From a virus, in the IMG/VR virus record IMGVR_UViG_3300036852_000353, positions 16,435 to 80,434 of that record: a stretch of DNA of 64,000 nt. One strand, written 5' to 3'. Each line of letters begins with the position of its first letter. Within the stretch, counting starts at the first letter, position 1. The translations under genes were made by a program, and so were the position numbers. Positions 1,217-57,796 of the stretch are shown in pieces. The notes under the pieces are model-generated. The model saw only the letters and a list, made by a program, of their open reading frames with translations. It had not been told where the DNA came from and made no database searches.

Positions 1217-1247
1217 CGTTAAGGCAGGCCCAACGTCCTGCACTGCG

Positions 1248-1322
<75 letters not shown>

Positions 1323-1334
1323 TCCTGCAGTGTA

Positions 1335-1643
1335 TCACTCGATCTCGCGGTAGCAGGGAATCACCCACGCGTTCTCACCCGCCGGACGCCACCCCGCCAG
1401 CGCCGTCAGCGCCAGCTTCTCCACTTCCGACATGGACAGCGCCCCATACATCGCCCGCCGGTCCGGCATCCACCCCAGATCGATCAGCCGGTGCCCGAGG
1501 CTGTTGCCGGGGAAGTAGCCATGCTGCACATCCTGGTCATGCCACAGCTCATGCTTCTCGATGTCCGTGCCCGCCACTGACAGCCACCACTGCCCGAAGT
1601 CATCGATCCACGCACGGGCGATCCGCATGTCATACCTCGTCAC
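1335..1643 (-). CDS. Hypothetical protein
   Basis: GGAGG RBS, GTG overlapping the recombinase stop. Confidence 0.6.
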   Translation of the reverse strand: MTRYDMRIARAWIDDFGQWWLSVAGTDIEKHELWHDQDVQHGYFPGNSLGHRLIDLGWMPDRRAMYGALSMSEVEKLALTALAGWRPAGENAWVIPCYREIE

Positions 1644-2674
1644 ATCAAACCCTCCGTCACACTCTCCTGCTCCTCCGGCCGGTTGTAGCGGTGCACCTGC
1701 GTCCCCTTCACCGACCACCCGCCATGCTCGGCGATCATCATGGACGGCTTGCCCGCACGAAACGCCATCGTCGCACCCGAAGCCCGTGTCGAGTGTGCCC
1801 GGTACGTACGCCCCGACGGCGCCGTGATCCCCGCCTCCAGCGTCGCGCACTTGACCACCCGGCCCAGCCAGTCGCCTTCCAGACGGTAGTCGAGGACCGT
1901 GTAGCCGAAGGACGTCTTGCGCATCTGCCGGAACAACGGCCCGCTGTGGATGCCCTTCGAGCTGAGCACGTTCACCCAACGCCTGAGCGCCCAGACCGCA
2001 TCCGACATCGGATGTGCGCCGCGGTCAACGACGAGCCGACGGCCGCGGGCGCGCTGGTCCTCCTTGGACTTGGCGATGGTCATGACGACCTTGCCGTGGG
2101 TGAAGTGGATGTCTGCGATGTCCAGGCCCACGATCTGCGAACGCCGCGCGAACGCACCGGTCGCCAGCAACAGACCCGCCCGGTCACGGATCCCAAGTGC
2201 CGTATCTCCGGGCAGAGTTGCGCTCATCGCACGCAGCTGCTCGATGGTGTAGGTGGCCGCCTCATCCGGCCGCCAGCCCGACTCGATCAGCCTGCGCCGG
2301 TACCCGGCCACGATCCGCCAGCAGTCCTCCCGGTCCGGCATGTGACGCTCGGCCACGTTGTGGACGTTCTTGTGGAAGAACACCACGGCGGAGATGCCCT
2401 GCTCGATCACCGTCTGCGAGTGCCCGGCCGTGCACCGGTCGGCCACCCAGTTCGTGAGGTGGTCGGTCAGCACCGGCACCGGGTTGATGTCGTTGTACTC
2501 GCACCACGCAAGGAACTTGCCCCACTCGCGCTTGTACGCGTTGTACGTCTGCGTCGGGACCGAATCGAACAATTGTTGCCAGGCGTTGGCCGACAGACGG
2601 GACCGACGCGCCGGAAGCTGAGCTGACGGGGCATCAGATTCTTCGTCAGGATCGATTCTGACGAGAGTGGTCAT
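1640..2674 (-). CDS. Tyrosine recombinase (Cre-like architecture)
   Basis: RDRAGLLLATGAFARRSQ box I, HSTR (HxxR), GGW and RY C-terminal motifs; N-terminal SAM-like core-binding region; ATG overlaps the HIT stop. Confidence 0.9.
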   Translation of the reverse strand: MTTLVRIDPDEESDAPSAQLPARRSRLSANAWQQLFDSVPTQTYNAYKREWGKFLAWCEYNDINPVPVLTDHLTNWVADRCTAGHSQTVIEQGISAVVFFHKNVHNVAERHMPDREDCWRIVAGYRRRLIESGWRPDEAATYTIEQLRAMSATLPGDTALGIRDRAGLLLATGAFARRSQIVGLDIADIHFTHGKVVMTIAKSKEDQRARGRRLVVDRGAHPMSDAVWALRRWVNVLSSKGIHSGPLFRQMRKTSFGYTVLDYRLEGDWLGRVVKCATLEAGITAPSGRTYRAHSTRASGATMAFRAGKPSMMIAEHGGWSVKGTQVHRYNRPEEQESVTEGLM

Positions 2675-3063
2675 GACGACCACAGCTCCGGAGTGCAGTT
2701 CGGGACCGCCTGCCGGATCCCGCCGCGAGGATCCTCGACGTCCCCGAAATGCCGGGGGATCATATGGATGTGCAGGTGGTCGACGGTCCTTCCGGCCGCC
2801 CGCCCCTCGTTGACACCGATGGTGAACCCATCAGGATGGTGCTCTTCCACCAGGCGCTCGCGCGCGGTCACGCTCAGCGCATAGGCATCAGTCACCTCCT
2901 GCGCGGTCAGATCGAAGAAGGACTCCACGTGCCGCTTCGGCACGACTTCCACATGGCCAGCAGCGGCCGGGAAGTTGTCGTACCGGACGTAGAACGTCTC
3001 GTTCTCGGCCAGGATCCGGTTGAGATCGGCGCGGCCCCGCTGACAGAACAGACACACAGGCAT
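2671..3063 (-). CDS. HIT family nucleotide hydrolase
   Basis: CLFC N-terminus, GHVEVVPKRH, GRTVDHLHIHMIPR histidine triad. Confidence 0.92.
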   Translation of the reverse strand: MPVCLFCQRGRADLNRILAENETFYVRYDNFPAAAGHVEVVPKRHVESFFDLTAQEVTDAYALSVTARERLVEEHHPDGFTIGVNEGRAAGRTVDHLHIHMIPRHFGDVEDPRGGIRQAVPNCTPELWSS

Positions 3064-52685: not shown

Positions 52686-52958
52686 TCAGCGGCTGGTCGG
52701 GGATTTACGGCCCCTGAGTTCGCTGGCCTTCTTCTTGCCTGCTTTGGTGACGGTGTAGACGGGGCTGTTGTCCTCCAGCTTCTCGTCGAGGAAGCCGTGG
52801 CGGACCAGGCCCTGGCACACGGCGTCGGTCAGCGCCCGGTTCTCGTCGTACAAGGCGTCGCCGTCCTTCAGGCGCCAGACGGGCTCCTTGCGTTTGGCCG
52901 CGGTGAGCTTGAGGAGCACCTCGGCGTGGGCTGTGCCGAAGGGGAGCTGCCGCGTCAT
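52686..52958 (-). CDS. Hypothetical (winged-helix-like) protein
   Basis: ATGA coupling; LVRHGFL...YTVTKAG. Confidence 0.6.
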   Translation of the reverse strand: MTRQLPFGTAHAEVLLKLTAAKRKEPVWRLKDGDALYDENRALTDAVCQGLVRHGFLDEKLEDNSPVYTVTKAGKKKASELRGRKSPTSR

Positions 52959-53338
52959 CGCCGCGCCTTCTTCCTGCTGTAGTCGACAGCCGAGTTGTAG
53001 CGGTCGCCCGCCCCCAGGGCGTTGTAGGCGGCCTTGTCGCACACCTCGATCTCCTTGCCGGTGTAGTCGGCGCGGATGTCGAGTTCGTAGCACTCCGGCT
53101 TGGTGGTGGCCGTGGCGGTGATGGACCCGGTCGTCACCGTCGTGCAGGTGCGCTTGCCCTTCTTGACGGTGCAGACCCGCTCCTTGACGGGCTTGTTCGT
53201 CTTCTTCGTCTTGGCGGGCTCGTACTCCTTTTCGATGACGGTGCCCTTGACGGGCCTGGTGTGGGTGTCGGCGCCGCAGGCGGTGATCAGGAGCACCGGT
53301 GCAGCGATGAGGGCGGCGATTACGAGGCTGGTTCTCAT
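52955..53338 (-). CDS. Lipoprotein
   Basis: Hydrophobic N-terminus ending LITAC; GACAAGGAAG RBS. Confidence 0.75.
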   Translation of the reverse strand: MRTSLVIAALIAAPVLLITACGADTHTRPVKGTVIEKEYEPAKTKKTNKPVKERVCTVKKGKRTCTTVTTGSITATATTKPECYELDIRADYTGKEIEVCDKAAYNALGAGDRYNSAVDYSRKKARR

Positions 53339-53419
53339 AGACGATGTGTCGTCTTCCTTGTCAGATGCGGAAACGGCGGCCAGCTGCAGGGGCTGGCCGC
53401 CGTCCTAGTGTGGCGCTTC

Positions 53420-54838
53420 TTACCGGAGGTTTCCAGGAATCGGCAACTCCGTGGTGATCGTGCTATGTGGGTCGTAGAGCGTGTGGACTGGCGCCGTCAA
53501 CTTCCGTAGTGGCATGGTCTCCTCGTGCCGCTGCGCCGGGATGATCACCTTCGGCGGTGCTTCATCCGCGGTGCTCTTGCGCGTTCCCCAGTGGGTGGTC
53601 CGTGCCTGTGTGATGGCCCAGTACATGGCGGGCTTGATGAGGAGCAGGTTCAGCAGCGAGACGAGCGGCGTCAGGAAGAGCCACGCAACGAACTTCTGTC
53701 CTGTACTCATCTCGGGGCGCAGTGCCACGTACATGCCCGTCTGCGCGTAGGTCATGATGACCCAGTACCCGAAGCCTTGGAGGAATACGAAGTATTCGCC
53801 CTGGTGGTACGGAAGCGCGAAGAACACCCAGGCGTAGAGAACAGGCGCGACTCCTGTGAGCACCATGCCGTACAGCCGGAAGAAGAGCGGTGCACCCTCG
53901 AAGTAGGTCAGTTCGTAGCCGACGTACTTCCAGTAGGACTTGAACCACCGTACTCGTTGCGTCCAGAGTTCCCCCAGGCCTGTCGGCATGGCGCTATACA
54001 CGAGTGCTTCGTTGACGGCGACGACCTGTCCACGCTGGAGTGCGTAGTGCGTGAGACGGCGGTCGTCGCCTGCGGTGCCGGAGGTGATGTAGTCCTCAAG
54101 GTTGTTGAGGACCAGCTCCTTGCGGTAGACCGCGAGGATTCCGGATGTCGGTGCTACGGCGCCGAGCTGGGAGCGTGCCATGCGGGTGACCAGGCACCAG
54201 GTGACGATCTCGACGTCGATGACGCGGGTCAGCCAGTTGTCGAGGCGGTTACGCACCAGTGTCAGGCCGGTGCATGCCTGGATTCGGGCGTCCGACATGG
54301 CCTTCATGCAGTGCCAGAGGGCCATCCTGTGGAGCACCGAGTCGGAGTCCACCGTCAGGAGCATGTCGTAGGAAGCGGGGTCGACGCGTCGCAGGACGTA
54401 GGCCTGTGCGTGACGCTTGCCCGCGTTGGCCTGCCGGTGCCACGTCACCAGCGGGTGGTCGAAGGGGACCACAGGCACCCGGGATCCATCGTCGACCACG
54501 TGAATCGCTTGGGGCGGGCGCGCCTGGTTGATGAGCGCCCACACCGTAGCGTAGAGCGCTTCTTGCGGTTCGTTGTAGGCGGGCACGATTGCGAGGACAC
54601 GCGCCGGGGAAGGCGGGTAGTGCTGGAAGCTGCGCCCCCGGATGGCGGCAGTGAGAGAGAAGACCATTACCACCGTGATGACGCAGTAGAAGACCAGCGC
54701 TACACCGAAAGACTGCTTGCTCCACATGAAGTGGTACAGCAGCGACCATGCGGTGGCCGCCAGGATGGCGGCCACACACACGAACACCTGCCAGGGGGAG
54801 CGGGTCCTCCTGGGCTTCATGCGGTGTTTATTACCCAC
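53420..54838 (-). CDS. Processive GT2 glycosyltransferase, hyaluronan-synthase-like
   Basis: Two N-terminal TMs; PAYNE, VVDDGS, GKRHA, TVDSD, GDDRRLT, QRVRW; C-terminal TMs. Confidence 0.88.
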   Translation of the reverse strand: MGNKHRMKPRRTRSPWQVFVCVAAILAATAWSLLYHFMWSKQSFGVALVFYCVITVVMVFSLTAAIRGRSFQHYPPSPARVLAIVPAYNEPQEALYATVWALINQARPPQAIHVVDDGSRVPVVPFDHPLVTWHRQANAGKRHAQAYVLRRVDPASYDMLLTVDSDSVLHRMALWHCMKAMSDARIQACTGLTLVRNRLDNWLTRVIDVEIVTWCLVTRMARSQLGAVAPTSGILAVYRKELVLNNLEDYITSGTAGDDRRLTHYALQRGQVVAVNEALVYSAMPTGLGELWTQRVRWFKSYWKYVGYELTYFEGAPLFFRLYGMVLTGVAPVLYAWVFFALPYHQGEYFVFLQGFGYWVIMTYAQTGMYVALRPEMSTGQKFVAWLFLTPLVSLLNLLLIKPAMYWAITQARTTHWGTRKSTADEAPPKVIIPAQRHEETMPLRKLTAPVHTLYDPHSTITTELPIPGNLR

Positions 54839-54989
54839 GGGTGCCGTTCCGCTTGGCCACGCGGTAGGTGAACGCGCCGATCAGGATCAGCGCGATGACT
54901 ATCGCAAGGAGCCAGTCGATGCCCACCCCCACGCCGAAAATCGTCAGCGTGCCCAACCCCGTCTTCGCGAGGGCTCCTTCGTCGTACAT
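54831..54989 (-). CDS. 52-aa peptide with LAKTG motif, TM helix and basic tail
   Basis: MYDEGALAKTGLGTLTIFGVGVGIDWLLAIVIALILIGAFTYRVAKRNGTRG; GACAAGGAAGG RBS; stop overlaps the GT2 start. Confidence 0.8.
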   Translation of the reverse strand: MYDEGALAKTGLGTLTIFGVGVGIDWLLAIVIALILIGAFTYRVAKRNGTRG

Positions 54990-55012
54990 GATTTCCTTCC
55001 TTGTCGGTGCGG

Positions 55013-56278
55013 CTAGAGCCGCTCGATGTGTGGGGCCGTCGGCATGACGCCCCGGGTGTCCAGCACGTAGGTCGCGTAGACGGCGACGTGCTGGAGATCG
55101 AAGGCCGTGTGCGGCGTGAGCAGCACGACGGCGTCGTAGTCCCCGATGTTGAGATCGTGACGGTCGGGAATCTCCTTGAGCTGGTCGAGGTCCCCCTCAG
55201 GGAAGAAGGGGTCGACCACGGTGACGCGGGCTCCGGCCTCGCGCAGCAGGTCAATGACGTCGGTGGCCGGGGATTCGCGCATGTCGGCGGTGTCAGGCTT
55301 GTAGGCCTGGCCGAGCGCGAGGATGAAGGCGCCGTTGAGCGCCTGGCCGTAGCGCTGGCTGAGACCGTCCTGCAGACGGCGTACGACATAGGCGGGCTGG
55401 TTGTCGTTGATCTCCTGCGCCAGTTCGACGAGGCGGAACGTGGCGCCGAACTCGGTACGCAGATGGTGGGTCAGGTAGACCGGGTCGCAGGGGATGCAGT
55501 GGCCTCCGACGCCGGGCCCGGGGGTGAACTTGGTGAAGCCGAAGGGCTTGGTGGCGGCGAGGTTGAGGACGTGGTGGACATTGACGCCGAGGGTGTGGGC
55601 GTGCCGCTGGAGTTCGTTGACCAGCGCGATGTTGACCTGGCGGTAGGTGTTTTCGAACACCTTGGCCAGCTCGGCTTCTTCGAGGCTGTCGGCCGGGACC
55701 AGGTGAGCGGTGATGCCCTGGTAGAACTCCATCACCTTGGCCAGGCAGTCTTCGGTGAGGCCGGAGATGATCTTCGGGGTCTTTTGGAACGTCCAGATGT
55801 GGTTACCGGGGTCGATGCGCTCCGGGCTGAAGCCGACGTGGAAGTCCTTGCCCGCGGTGAGTTCGGAGGCCGTCTCCAGGATGGGGATGACGACGCTGTG
55901 GGTGGTGCCCGGGTAGGTCGTCGACTCCAGGATGACGGTGGCGCCGGGGTTCAGGTACATCGCCACTGTGGTGACGGCGCTTTCGACGTAGCTGAGGTCG
56001 GGGGCGCCCTTCTTCACGGGTGTGGGGACCGTGATGATGGCGACGTCGAAGTCCTTCATGTGGTGTTCGTCGTTGATGGGGCGGTACAGCCCGTGCAGGC
56101 CAGCGAGGGTCTCCTGCAGCTGGAGGGAGGTGATGTCTTCTACGTAGGAGATGCCTGCTGTCAGCTGCTGGTAGCGCTGCTGGTCGGGTTCGTAGCCGAG
56201 TACTTCATGGCCCGCTTGCGCGGCAGCCATGGCCAGGGGCAGGCCGACGTAGCCCTGCCCCATGACGAGAATCTTCAC
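55013..56278 (-). CDS. Nucleotide-sugar 6-dehydrogenase (WbpA/WecC/TviB type)
   Basis: GQGYVGLP Rossmann motif, ESTTYPGTT, SPERIDPG, KVFENTYRQVNIA, PGPGVGGHCIPCDP, YKPDTADMRESP. Confidence 0.93.
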   Translation of the reverse strand: MKILVMGQGYVGLPLAMAAAQAGHEVLGYEPDQQRYQQLTAGISYVEDITSLQLQETLAGLHGLYRPINDEHHMKDFDVAIITVPTPVKKGAPDLSYVESAVTTVAMYLNPGATVILESTTYPGTTHSVVIPILETASELTAGKDFHVGFSPERIDPGNHIWTFQKTPKIISGLTEDCLAKVMEFYQGITAHLVPADSLEEAELAKVFENTYRQVNIALVNELQRHAHTLGVNVHHVLNLAATKPFGFTKFTPGPGVGGHCIPCDPVYLTHHLRTEFGATFRLVELAQEINDNQPAYVVRRLQDGLSQRYGQALNGAFILALGQAYKPDTADMRESPATDVIDLLREAGARVTVVDPFFPEGDLDQLKEIPDRHDLNIGDYDAVVLLTPHTAFDLQHVAVYATYVLDTRGVMPTAPHIERL

Positions 56279-56419
56279 AGGGATTGCCCTTCCTTTTCAC
56301 GGATCATCGTACTGGTCAGAAGTTGACGTTCTGCTTGTAGTGACGCATCTGAGACATGCGTCAGCCCGGAACCTCAGGCTCCGGGCTGAGTTGGTGTTGT
56401 GATCAGCAGTTGTGGCTGA

Positions 56420-57265: not shown

Positions 57266-57796
57266 TCAGGCTCCTTTCAGGTCATACACGGTAACGGGGA
57301 TACCACACGCAGTGAGGGTGTTTTGGATGATCGGTTCGATTTCATCCCAGGTGCCGCCGCCGAGACCGCATCCGATGCGCGGCATGTGGACGGAGGCTTC
57401 GTTGAGGTAGGCGATGTGGGCGACCTGTTCCAGACAGGAGTGCACCGCGTCGTAGTCGACGGCGCGGGGTGCGCTGCTGTGGTGCCGGATGCCCCGCTGG
57501 GCGATCATGTTGGCGACCAGGGTCCTGGACTCGTAGTCCGCCTGCTCCATGGGGCGCGGGTTGTAGTGGGTGAGCTGGATCTGTCCCAGCGTGAACGGGA
57601 CTTCTTGGTCGCCGTTCTTGTAGAAGGTGTTCTCGGCCCAGTGGCGGTAGCACATCTCCGGTTCACGGTCGCGCTTGGAGAGTGCGACCACGAATCCACT
57701 GCCCCACTTGCCCTTGTCGTTACAGACGTGCGCGATGATCTTGAGGCCGTCGCCCTGGGGGTCGGTGGCATCGCCGGTGGTGTAGGTGATGGTCAA
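57266..57796 (-). CDS. Macrodomain ADP-ribose hydrolase (TARG1/DarG/SCO6735-like)
   Basis: GDAT, IIAHVCNDKGKWGSGF, VANMIAQRG, VHMPRIGCGLGGGTW, GIPVTVYD; TTG overlaps the upstream stop. Confidence 0.9.
   Translation of the reverse strand: MTITYTTGDATDPQGDGLKIIAHVCNDKGKWGSGFVVALSKRDREPEMCYRHWAENTFYKNGDQEVPFTLGQIQLTHYNPRPMEQADYESRTLVANMIAQRGIRHHSSAPRAVDYDAVHSCLEQVAHIAYLNEASVHMPRIGCGLGGGTWDEIEPIIQNTLTACGIPVTVYDLKGA

What the first reader, a model, noticed from the sequence alone, without database searches (positions are those of the whole stretch)
53420..56278. Phage polysaccharide cassette: UDP-sugar dehydrogenase, LAKTG micro-peptide and hyaluronan-synthase-like GT2
Seen: three co-oriented genes, with the peptide stop overlapping the GT2 start. 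The GT2 has the membrane-embedded processive layout with GDDRRLT and QRVRW. The dehydrogenase has GHCIPxDP, typical of UDP-HexNAc dehydrogenases rather than UDP-glucose dehydrogenase. Established: chloroviruses encode a comparable synthase plus dehydrogenase and coat the host in polymer. Inference: infected or lysogenic cells export a uronic-acid (possibly HexNAcA) glycan that masks receptors or alters hyphal surfaces.
Basis: partly seen in the sequence, partly recalled or inferred. Interest (0 to 1): 0.72.

Follow-up and report, generated by a model that had tools for sequence, protein, structure and literature searches.

The report
Phage-borne HasA-like glycan synthase cassette
A Streptomyces-type phage carries a gene set taken from its hosts: a sugar-oxidising enzyme, a hyaluronan-synthase-like membrane enzyme and a 52-residue membrane partner that carries a sortase tag, which points to an undescribed link between polysaccharide secretion and cell-wall anchoring.

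Summary
On the minus strand lie a nucleotide-sugar dehydrogenase (56278-55013), a 52-aa micro-ORF (54989-54831) and a 472-aa membrane GT2 (54838-53420).

- **GT2:** its closest structural match is Streptococcus HasA (TM 0.75/0.84), followed by chlorovirus and vertebrate hyaluronan synthases. It reaches no curated family cut-off.
- **Dehydrogenase:** it scores as UDP-HexNAc type rather than UDP-glucose type, as do its counterparts in bacterial cassettes.
- **Origin:** the cassette is not phage-specific. It is a conserved operon of Streptomyces and Pseudonocardiaceae, nested in a Streptomyces clade, and was captured as a moron.
- **Micro-peptide:** it recurs directly upstream of this GT2 family in about 49 loci. 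L, A/P, T and G are kept, the x position varies freely, and synonymous changes occur within the motif. A controlled complex model supports it binding the synthase, and its anchor is homologous to the C-terminal anchor of a secreted deacetylase in a sister clade.

Sortase processing, the polymer's identity and receptor masking remain inferences.

The scan had already found this GT2/micro-peptide pair in another phage (e1-5351205). I found no paper describing it.

The parts
55013..56278 (-). Nucleotide-sugar 6-dehydrogenase (421 aa), UDP-HexNAc type by similarity ranking
   Evidence: TIGR03026 at 391 bits. The best equivalog models are UDP-ManNAc dehydrogenase (248 and 208 bits) and TviB (207 bits), against UDP-glucose dehydrogenase models at 160, 141 and 56 bits; all are below their cut-offs. 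The best solved structures are 4r16 UDP-ManNAcA dehydrogenase (5e-64) and Cap5O (4e-52). GHCIPCDP lies at residues 259-266.
54831..54989 (-). 52-aa micro-protein: acidic N-tail (MYDEGA), LAKTG, about 31 hydrophobic residues, basic tail (RVAKRNGTRG). Predicted single-pass subunit of the synthase carrying a class-E-sortase-type signal.
   Evidence: L7, T10, G11, G38 and R43 invariant in 28 sequences that were selected for the motif. Complex model: score 0.72 against a best control of 0.00. hhalign to the deacetylase C-terminal anchors: 96.3% probability.
53420..54838 (-). HasA/NodC-like membrane-embedded processive GT2 synthase (472 aa; alternative start ATG 54820). Residues 421-472 form a disordered tail.
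   Evidence: Pfam GT2 models. NodC model at 102 bits, below its 550 cut-off. Profile search of solved structures: hyaluronan synthases at 2e-24 and 3.5e-22. AF2 model pLDDT 81. Foldseek: the top 13 PDB hits are all hyaluronan synthases. S. pyogenes HasA: TM 0.75/0.84, rmsd 3.3.
56361..56390 (-). 10-bp inverted repeat in the 141-bp spacer upstream of the dehydrogenase. Probably the terminator of the preceding gene, which would make the cassette a separate transcription unit.
   Evidence: Read from the sequence. The terminator-like scan gave a hit on the opposite strand. No sigma-70-type promoter was found.
53375..53401 (-). 10-bp GC-rich hairpin (GGCGGCCAGC / GCTGGCCGCC) starting 19 nt after the GT2 stop. 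Probable terminator of the cassette.
   Evidence: Read from the sequence.
52955..53338 (-). Small lipoprotein gene immediately downstream (127 aa, lipobox LITAC). Possibly travels with the cassette in phages.
   Evidence: A homologue sits in the same position after the GT2 in phage L003 (32% identity, E 1.6e-5) but not in bacterial loci. Matches phrog_4392, function unknown.

Best explanation
The cassette is a host-derived moron that encodes a compact exopolysaccharide machine.

1. The dehydrogenase oxidises a UDP-HexNAc (UDP-GlcNAc or UDP-ManNAc) to its uronic acid. This is inferred.
2. The GT2 is a HasA-type synthase. It polymerises the glycan and threads it through its own membrane channel. 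The fold and motifs are shown; the product is inferred to be an acidic HexNAc-containing polymer.
3. The 52-aa protein is an integral single-pass subunit, N-terminus outside and C-terminus inside, packed against TM2, TM3 and interface helix 3 of the synthase. This is predicted. It would play a role like IcaD or PgaD.
4. Its outward N-tail carries L[A/P]xTG. Host class E or F sortases probably cleave it, which would link the N-terminal decapeptide to lipid II or peptidoglycan, or otherwise couple synthase activity to the wall. This is inferred.
5. In the phage, the cassette is expressed from the early or moron region and changes the Streptomyces surface, for example to block superinfection or adsorption. 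This is inferred.
For: - **GT2 identity:**. All catalytic motifs are invariant in the family.
- **Dehydrogenase class:**. The same ranking holds for cassette dehydrogenases from Streptomyces, Amycolatopsis and Marmoricola. A dehydrogenase lies within 4 kb of the GT2 in about 40 of 90 loci, in three different arrangements.
- **Host origin:** the same three-gene order occurs in chromosomal Streptomyces tibetensis and Amycolatopsis thermoflava contexts. Similarity of the window to other loci ends at the cassette borders. The window GT2 nests in a Streptomyces clade with 100/100 support.
- **Micro-peptide as partner:** it is found upstream of the GT2 in about 49 loci on both sides of the deepest split of the GT2 tree.
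- **Complex model:** score 0.72 with best of 3 controls 0.00. That mark was reached by 58 of 80 solved complexes and 2 of 110 mismatched pairs. Partner pLDDT is at least 66 and the runs share at least 43% of contacts.
- **Topology:** the peptide anchor is homologous to the C-terminal anchor of a signal-peptide-bearing CE4 deacetylase encoded upstream of the GT2 in the sister clade. The basic tail contacts the cytoplasmic interface helix in the model.
- **Sortase signal:** L, A/P, T and G are kept while x is K, R, Y, V, F, A, S, H or P. Both LAxTG and LPxTG occur. Synonymous codon changes occur in the motif. LAXTG followed by a hydrophobic stretch and basic tail is the class E sorting signal (PMC5148588). 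All 20 canonical-motif host genomes among the 40 tested carry 2-11 sortase matches.
Against: - No sortase is encoded in this phage or in 25 other viral records that carry the pair.
- In about 14 loci the positional homologue has a degenerate motif or none, and in about 15 it is replaced by a deacetylase anchor without the motif. Sortase processing therefore cannot be essential to the synthase.
- Sortases are also present in most motif-less genomes, so the presence/absence correlation is weak.
- The peptide lacks a signal peptide and a passenger domain, and it reaches no curated sorting-signal model.
- The Kromp-like and L093-L096 phage-borne pairs lack the dehydrogenase.
- Dehydrogenase substrate and polymer identity rest on similarity ranking alone, below all equivalog cut-offs.
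- No promoter was detected and there are no expression data.
- The complex model is a prediction.
Confidence: 0.6

Rival explanations
1. The cassette makes true hyaluronan (alternating GlcA and GlcNAc), as the streptococcal hasA-hasB pair and the chlorovirus genes do. The dehydrogenase would be a divergent UDP-glucose dehydrogenase.
For: HasA is the best structural match over its full length. The profile search and Foldseek put hyaluronan synthases first. The residues that CvHAS uses to hold the GlcA carboxylate (Lys177, Arg341; PMC12987647) align with the conserved K141 and R297.
Against: The dehydrogenase, and all cassette dehydrogenases tested, score much higher against UDP-ManNAc, UDP-GlcNAc and NDP-GalNAcA dehydrogenases than against UDP-glucose dehydrogenases. 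K141 and R297 lie in two motifs invariant across this family (GKR and QxxRW), so they may not discriminate. The sister clade couples the GT2 to deacetylases (CE4, PIG-L), which suggests HexNAc chemistry.
Confidence: 0.12
2. The L[A/P]xTG in the micro-peptide is not a sortase signal. It is a structural element at the outer face of the synthase, and the peptide is purely an IcaD/PgaD-like subunit that is never cleaved.
For: T10 and G11 and the following residues are among the confident contacts with the GT2 in the model. Related peptides and deacetylase anchors work without the motif. No phage in my set encodes a sortase. There is no passenger domain to display.
Against: The conservation pattern (L, A or P, free x, T, G) matches sortase specificity exactly, in lineages with only 29-40% peptide identity. 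The motif is followed by the canonical hydrophobic stretch and basic tail, with an N-out topology. An earlier scan report describes another phage with the pair plus a sortase (e1-5351205); I could not verify this here.
Confidence: 0.25
3. The GT2 makes a neutral chitin-like polymer or chito-oligosaccharide (NodC-like or chitin-synthase-like), and the dehydrogenase serves another pathway.
For: The NodC model gives the best NCBIfam hit (102 bits). Many pairs, including Kromp-like phages, lack a dehydrogenase.
Against: A dehydrogenase of one class is linked to the GT2 in three independent gene orders across clades. HasA fits better than NodC structurally (TM 0.75 against about 0.6).
Confidence: 0.1
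4. The GT2 glycosylates phage DNA or virion proteins rather than making a secreted polymer.
For: None beyond the fact that many phage glycosyltransferases do this.
Against: The enzyme has two N-terminal TM helices, further C-terminal membrane helices and interface helices in a synthase channel architecture. Orthologues sit in ordinary bacterial chromosomal contexts.
Confidence: 0.01

Closest known systems
Streptococcus pyogenes has operon (HasA class I hyaluronan synthase with HasB UDP-glucose dehydrogenase)
   Same: A synthase of about 420 residues with the same full-length architecture (TM 0.75/0.84, rmsd 3.3, 25% identity). It has the GDDR, QxxRW and WGTR motifs and is encoded next to a nucleotide-sugar 6-dehydrogenase.
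   Different: The dehydrogenase here is of the UDP-HexNAc class, not the HasB type. A translationally coupled micro-protein subunit is present, and to my knowledge HasA has no such partner. The product is unknown.
Chlorovirus PBCV-1 hyaluronan synthase with virus-encoded UDP-glucose dehydrogenase (PMC5408694; structures 7sp6-7spa)
   Same: A virus carries both a processive GT2 synthase and a sugar dehydrogenase, and the infected host is coated with polymer. CvHAS is the top solved structural match.
   Different: This is a bacteriophage with a different dehydrogenase class. The synthase lacks the extra C-terminal part of CvHAS (the alignment ends at CvHAS residue 463 of 570). There is an added sortase-tagged micro-subunit, and the cassette was clearly borrowed recently from the host genus.
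IcaA-IcaD and PgaC-PgaD PNAG synthase pairs
   Same: A GT2 synthase works with a small membrane protein encoded next to it. The sister clade also carries an extracellular CE4 deacetylase, as IcaB and PgaB are.
   Different: There is no detectable sequence relation. The PgaC/IcaA model scores 63 bits against a 422 cut-off. The partner here is single-pass, lies upstream and carries L[A/P]xTG.
Class E sortase substrates of Streptomyces (chaplins ChpA-C, LAXTG; PMC5148588)
   Same: An LAxTG pentapeptide, a hydrophobic segment and a basic C-terminal tail, in the same host genus.
   Different: There is no signal peptide and no passenger domain, and only 6 residues precede the motif. The hydrophobic part is longer (about 31 residues) and is predicted to be bound to a synthase.
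NCBIfam NF058583 'LAXTG motif-containing small protein' (LAXTG_small_WW)
   Same: A curated model for about 54-aa LAXTG small proteins. 15 of the 28 peptides match it weakly.
   Different: All scores are far below its 65-bit cut-off (window peptide 14 bits, best 27 bits). The model carries no functional statement.
Streptomyces phage Kromp gp78-gp79 (MH744420)
   Same: An isolated Streptomyces phage with the same micro-ORF (LASTG) overlapping the start of a homologous GT2 (29% identity).
   Different: It has no dehydrogenase. The genes are annotated only as 'hypothetical protein' and 'glycosyltransferase'. It belongs to a deeply separate GT2 clade.

Membership tests
Class I hyaluronan synthase (HasA / CvHAS / vertebrate HAS) | GT2 GT-A domain with DxD, GDD(R) and QxxRW catalytic motifs | tested here: met
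   DDG at 116-118, DSD at 164-166, GDDRRLT at 257-263 and QRVRW at 294-298. All are invariant in 16 family members.
Class I hyaluronan synthase (HasA / CvHAS / vertebrate HAS) | C-terminal WGT(R/S)G loop after the membrane helices | tested here: met
   WGTR at 417-420 aligns with WGTSG of Xenopus HAS1 and WGTRG of CvHAS. W417, T419 and R420 are invariant.
Class I hyaluronan synthase (HasA / CvHAS / vertebrate HAS) | Full-length membrane architecture like HasA | tested here: met
   AF2 model against the HasA model: TM 0.75/0.84, residues 15-427 against 3-419. The top 13 PDB hits are hyaluronan synthases.
Class I hyaluronan synthase (HasA / CvHAS / vertebrate HAS) | Sequence-level membership in a curated model | tested here: not met
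   PF03142 (Chitin_synth_2, 'Chitin synthase') scores 25.6 bits against a 27 cut-off. phmmer finds no solved hyaluronan synthase at E <= 0.001; only a family profile reaches them.
Class I hyaluronan synthase (HasA / CvHAS / vertebrate HAS) | Makes alternating GlcA-GlcNAc polymer, supplied by a UDP-glucose dehydrogenase | tested here: inconclusive
   The product is not testable here. The linked dehydrogenase ranks with UDP-HexNAc dehydrogenases, not UDP-glucose dehydrogenases.
NodC chito-oligosaccharide synthase (TIGR04242) | Score at or above the equivalog cut-off | tested here: not met
   102 bits against a cut-off of 550. Structural TM is about 0.6, lower than for HasA.
PgaC/IcaA PNAG synthase (TIGR03937) | Score at or above the equivalog cut-off | tested here: not met
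   63 bits against a cut-off of 422.
Nucleotide-sugar 6-dehydrogenase (TIGR03026; UDPG_MGDP_dh) | Three-domain architecture and subfamily score | tested here: met
   391 bits against a cut-off of 190. All three Pfam domains are above cut-off.
UDP-ManNAc / UDP-GlcNAc 6-dehydrogenases (WecC, Cap5O, TviB) | Equivalog-level score | tested here: not met
   248, 208 and 207 bits against cut-offs of 750, 459 and 592. These are still the best-ranking classes, and GGHCIPxDP around the catalytic Cys is present. That this motif is typical of the class comes from my own knowledge.
Sortase substrate (cell-wall sorting signal) | L[A/P]xTG followed by a hydrophobic segment and a basic tail at the C-terminus | tested here: met
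   LAKTG at residues 7-11, 31 hydrophobic residues, then RVAKRNGTRG. The same layout occurs in about 49 loci. The signal definition is taken from PMC5148588.
Sortase substrate (cell-wall sorting signal) | N-terminal signal peptide and a passenger domain to be displayed | tested here: not met
   Only 6 residues precede the motif.
Sortase substrate (cell-wall sorting signal) | Cleavage between T and G and transfer to lipid II | not testable with these tools
   Needs biochemistry. 38 of 40 carrier genomes tested have sortases (2-11 matches in those whose peptide has the canonical motif). The phage has none.
NCBIfam NF058583 LAXTG_small_WW | Score at or above 65 bits | tested here: not met
   The window peptide scores 14.3 bits. 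The best of 28 peptides has E 1.8e-6 (27.5 bits).

The most novel reading that the evidence does not exclude
The micro-protein is an adaptor that lets a sortase couple a synthase-made polysaccharide, or the active synthase itself, to peptidoglycan. For example, the glycan could be attached to the short acidic N-tail (conserved Tyr or Ser at position 2-3), and the sortase would then transfer the glycopeptide to lipid II. This would be a wall-anchoring route for polysaccharides that is independent of LCP enzymes, and phages would have borrowed it at least four times to remodel the host surface.
Probability: 0.15. Interest if true: 0.9.

Novelty: new variant of a known kind. Interest (0 to 1): 0.66.

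Why it matters
Processive GT2 synthases such as cellulose, chitin, hyaluronan and PNAG synthases are well studied. I found no description of one whose obligate small subunit carries a sortase sorting signal.

If the signal is used, it connects two major Gram-positive surface pathways, synthase-dependent polysaccharide export and sortase anchoring, through a 52-residue protein that gene callers often miss.

The pair is widespread in Streptomyces, Pseudonocardiaceae, Nonomuraea, Nocardiopsis and others. Phages have captured it at least four times, which argues for a strong effect on the cell surface that phages exploit, such as superinfection exclusion or adsorption control.

The dehydrogenase class also hints at a HexNAc-uronic-acid polymer. 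To my knowledge no synthase of this type has been reported to make one.

Tried and rejected
- **Nucleotide search:** megablast of the cassette against phage records found nothing.
- **Single-sequence structure search:** phmmer of the GT2 against solved structures found nothing; a family profile was needed.
- **Sortase next to the pair:**
  - None in this phage.
  - None in 21 viral records or 4 more.
  - Only one crude motif hit, in the bacterial locus L043, which belongs to the motif-less deacetylase clade.
  - I could therefore not reproduce the sortase adjacency reported in e1-5351205.
- **Sortase presence against motif presence:** across 40 genomes the test was uninformative. 38 have sortases. 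The two without (L030 Longimicrobium, L033 MAG) have motif-less peptides, but so do many sortase-bearing genomes.
- **Literature:** four searches for the pair found nothing relevant: LAXTG small protein with glycosyltransferase; hyaluronan synthase with Streptomyces phage; NodC-like with Streptomyces; sorting signal, micropeptide and polysaccharide synthase.
- **GlcA-binding residues:** I tried to discriminate GlcA use through the CvHAS residues Lys177 and Arg341 (PMC12987647). Both are conserved here, but they lie in two motifs invariant across this family (GKR and QxxRW), so the test does not discriminate.
- **Second small ORF in L006:** the 54-aa ORF upstream is not a paralogue.
- **Promoter scan:** no sigma-70-type site was found. 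This is uninformative for Streptomyces.
- **DNA or virion glycosylation:** rejected because of the membrane-channel architecture.
Full report
**Observation**

The window is a siphovirus-type actinophage. It has a capsid protease, major capsid protein, tape measure, DNA polymerase and helicase, and its GC content is 60-67%. It comes from a 111,555-bp virus record with direct terminal repeats. Its capsid protein is closest to Streptomyces phage Dagobah at 50% identity. A tyrosine-recombinase-like gene lies at 1640-2683, next to a tRNA-Met, so a temperate lifestyle is possible.

Three co-oriented ORFs lie on the minus strand:
- a 421-aa dehydrogenase at 56278-55013;
- a 52-aa ORF at 54989-54831;
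- a 472-aa GT2 at 54838-53420.

The overlap between the peptide stop and the GT2 start depends on using GTG 54838. The database version of the protein starts at ATG 54820, 10 nt after the stop. Hairpins flank the block at 56361-56390 and 53375-53401.

**The GT2**

It hits three Pfam GT2 models. It also hits NodC (102 bits), PgaC/IcaA (63 bits) and PF03142 (25.6 bits), all below their cut-offs.

A profile of 16 family members finds hyaluronan synthases first among solved structures: Xenopus HAS1 at 2e-24 and chlorovirus HAS at 3.5e-22. Chitin and cellulose synthases follow far behind. The alignment runs through the WGTR loop.

The AF2 model (pLDDT 81) has two N-terminal TM helices, the GT-A domain, interface helices and further membrane helices. 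Foldseek puts 13 hyaluronan-synthase entries on top in the PDB. Among reviewed proteins, Streptococcus pyogenes HasA is best over its whole length (TM 0.75/0.84, rmsd 3.3, 25% identity), ahead of NodC at about 0.6.

So it works like a class I, HasA-type synthase, but it belongs to a separate actinobacterial family with more than 500 members. I found no characterised member.

**The dehydrogenase**

It is a clear nucleotide-sugar 6-dehydrogenase (TIGR03026, 391 bits). The ranking of specific models and of solved structures puts UDP-ManNAc, UDP-GlcNAc and NDP-GalNAcA dehydrogenases well above UDP-glucose dehydrogenases. None reaches an equivalog cut-off.

The same ranking holds for the cassette dehydrogenases of Streptomyces tibetensis, Amycolatopsis thermoflava and Marmoricola. 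A dehydrogenase lies within 4 kb of the GT2 in about 40 of 90 loci, in three arrangements: upstream, downstream, or separated by a deacetylase. This repeated linkage is the best argument that the polymer contains a HexNAc-uronic acid. It remains an inference.

**Origin**

The order dehydrogenase, micro-ORF, GT2 occurs in ordinary chromosomal contexts of S. tibetensis and A. thermoflava and in a dozen more Streptomyces genomes.

Similarity between the window and those loci stops at the cassette borders, roughly 53560 to 56305.

In a maximum-likelihood tree (midpoint root only), the window GT2 groups with a second complete phage with direct terminal repeats (L003, 86 kb) and its prophage relative in S. 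cylindrosporus (L009; its flanks match L003 at 82-84%). That trio is nested in a 13-member clade in which the other ten copies are Streptomyces genome loci, with 100/100 support.

Viral copies of the pair appear in at least four separate places of the tree:
- this group;
- Kromp-like phages together with L075, L084 and L086;
- L093-L096, next to the S. amakusaensis group;
- L072 and L073 in the deacetylase clade.

**The micro-protein**

A 48-59-aa ORF lies directly upstream of the GT2, often overlapping its start, in 44 loci of the first two scans, 4 more viral loci and the window. Its layout is a short acidic N-tail (M(G)YD[DE] or MSD[NH]), then L-[A/P]-x-T-G, about 30 hydrophobic residues and an Arg-rich tail. 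This includes the isolated Streptomyces phage Kromp, where gp78 is annotated only as hypothetical.

In 28 diverse copies, L7, T10, G11, G38 and R43 are invariant; these copies were selected for the motif. The second motif position is A or P, and x is K, R, Y, V, F, A, S, H or P. Codons of the motif carry synonymous changes. This is the pattern expected of a class E (LAXTG) or LPXTG sortase signal (PMC5148588).

Without conditioning on the motif, the picture is broader:
- About 14 loci have a positional homologue with the acidic N-tail but a degenerate motif or none. They include Chloroflexi, Longimicrobium, Solirubrobacteraceae and some Streptosporangiaceae.
- In the Nocardioides, Kineococcus and Marmoricola clade the upstream gene is a CE4 deacetylase with a signal peptide. 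Its C-terminal anchor aligns with peptide residues 13-52 (hhalign 96.3%, E 1.6e-9).

The conserved core is therefore a synthase-associated membrane anchor with its N-terminus outside. The sortase motif is an addition, or an ancestral feature lost several times: the tree needs 5 changes.

**Complex prediction**

The complex was predicted with family alignments for both chains. The score was 0.72 (runs 0.72, 0.74 and 0.71) and the best of 3 controls was 0.00. That mark was reached by 58 of 80 solved complexes and 2 of 110 mismatched pairs. Partner pLDDT was at least 66, and the runs agreed in at least 43% of contacts.

The model supports binding; it does not show it. Peptide residues 24-47 pack on GT2 residues 45-54 (TM2), 302-311 (interface helix) and 322-338 (TM3). 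The basic tail sits at the cytoplasmic interface helix. T10 to V20 are also listed among the confident contacts.

**Sortase link**

The phage has no sortase, and neither do 25 other viral records carrying the pair. Among 40 bacterial carrier genomes, 38 have sortases. All those with the canonical motif have 2-11 matches, but so do most motif-less ones.

An earlier report of this scan (e1-5351205) describes another actinophage with a synthase, an LPVTG micro-protein and a sortase. I confirmed that the pair is widespread, but I could not retrieve or verify the sortase adjacency.

NCBIfam has a narrow model named 'LAXTG motif-containing small protein'. It matches 15 of 28 peptides only weakly, at most 27 bits against a cut-off of 65. 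I found no paper on the pair.

**Mechanism and verdict**

| Status | Point |
|---|---|
| Shown | Three real genes |
| Shown | HasA-like synthase fold and motifs |
| Shown | HexNAc-type ranking of the dehydrogenase |
| Shown | Host origin of the cassette |
| Shown | Conserved micro-protein carrying a sortase-type motif |
| Predicted | The micro-protein is a bound subunit, N-terminus outside |
| Inferred | An acidic HexNAc polymer is exported |
| Inferred | Host sortase cleaves the subunit and links its N-terminal decapeptide, or something attached to it, to the wall |
| Inferred | The phage uses this to change the hyphal surface |

The enzymology calls were good. The 'phage cassette' is a borrowed host operon, and the surface-masking role is untested. 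The chlorovirus parallel (PMC5408694) holds as an analogy.

Noticed in passing
window 53420-53578 (GT2 residues about 421-472); also L001:6230-6344, L003:5300-5410, L009, L074, L076, L081-L083, L085, L087: Phage-borne GT2 copies from two deeply divergent clades (28% identity) share a C-terminal tail motif, roughly P-L-x-A/V-K-L/M-L-D-P-D/E-S/T-E-T/N-T-L. It is degenerate in the window (TLYDPHSTITTEL). The closest chromosomal Streptomyces copies end right after WGTRK and lack it. No bacterial chromosomal locus in the set has it.
   Followed up: partly
window 52955-53338 (-): A small lipoprotein gene lies directly after the GT2 terminator hairpin. Its homologue sits in the same position in phage L003 (32% identity) but in no bacterial cassette. 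It matches phrog_4392 (unknown function) and may be a phage-specific fourth member of the block.
   Followed up: partly
window 1247-2683: A tyrosine-recombinase-like ORF (1640-2683, minus strand; PF00589 at 38.8 bits) lies next to a tRNA-Met gene (1247-1322). The 111-kb phage may be temperate.
   Followed up: no
window 57266-57796 (-): A macrodomain-like ORF about 1 kb upstream of the cassette matches phrog_335 ('phosphatase', 8.7e-28).
   Followed up: no
L043 around 6386 (-): A class-E-like sortase signature (LLTLVTC...R) lies about 1.2 kb downstream of a deacetylase-type GT2 locus in a Nocardioidaceae MAG. It is the only sortase-like hit within the flanks of about 90 loci.
   Followed up: no
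L044 (contig labelled Sphingomonas paucimobilis MAG): Its GT2 locus is nearly identical to that of Nocardioides rubriscoriae (L063) in the tree. This is probably a mis-binned actinobacterial contig.
   Followed up: no
protein P0031 (697 aa): A natural fusion of this GT2 family with a PF02156 (glycoside hydrolase 26) domain. It hints at a beta-linked product that a GH26-type enzyme could trim.
   Followed up: no
L072, L073 (viral contigs of 206 and 177 kb): Large viral contigs carry the deacetylase-clade GT2 together with a dehydrogenase. L073 has the deacetylase anchor and L072 has neither peptide nor deacetylase. This looks like a fourth, independent viral capture of the family.
   Followed up: no
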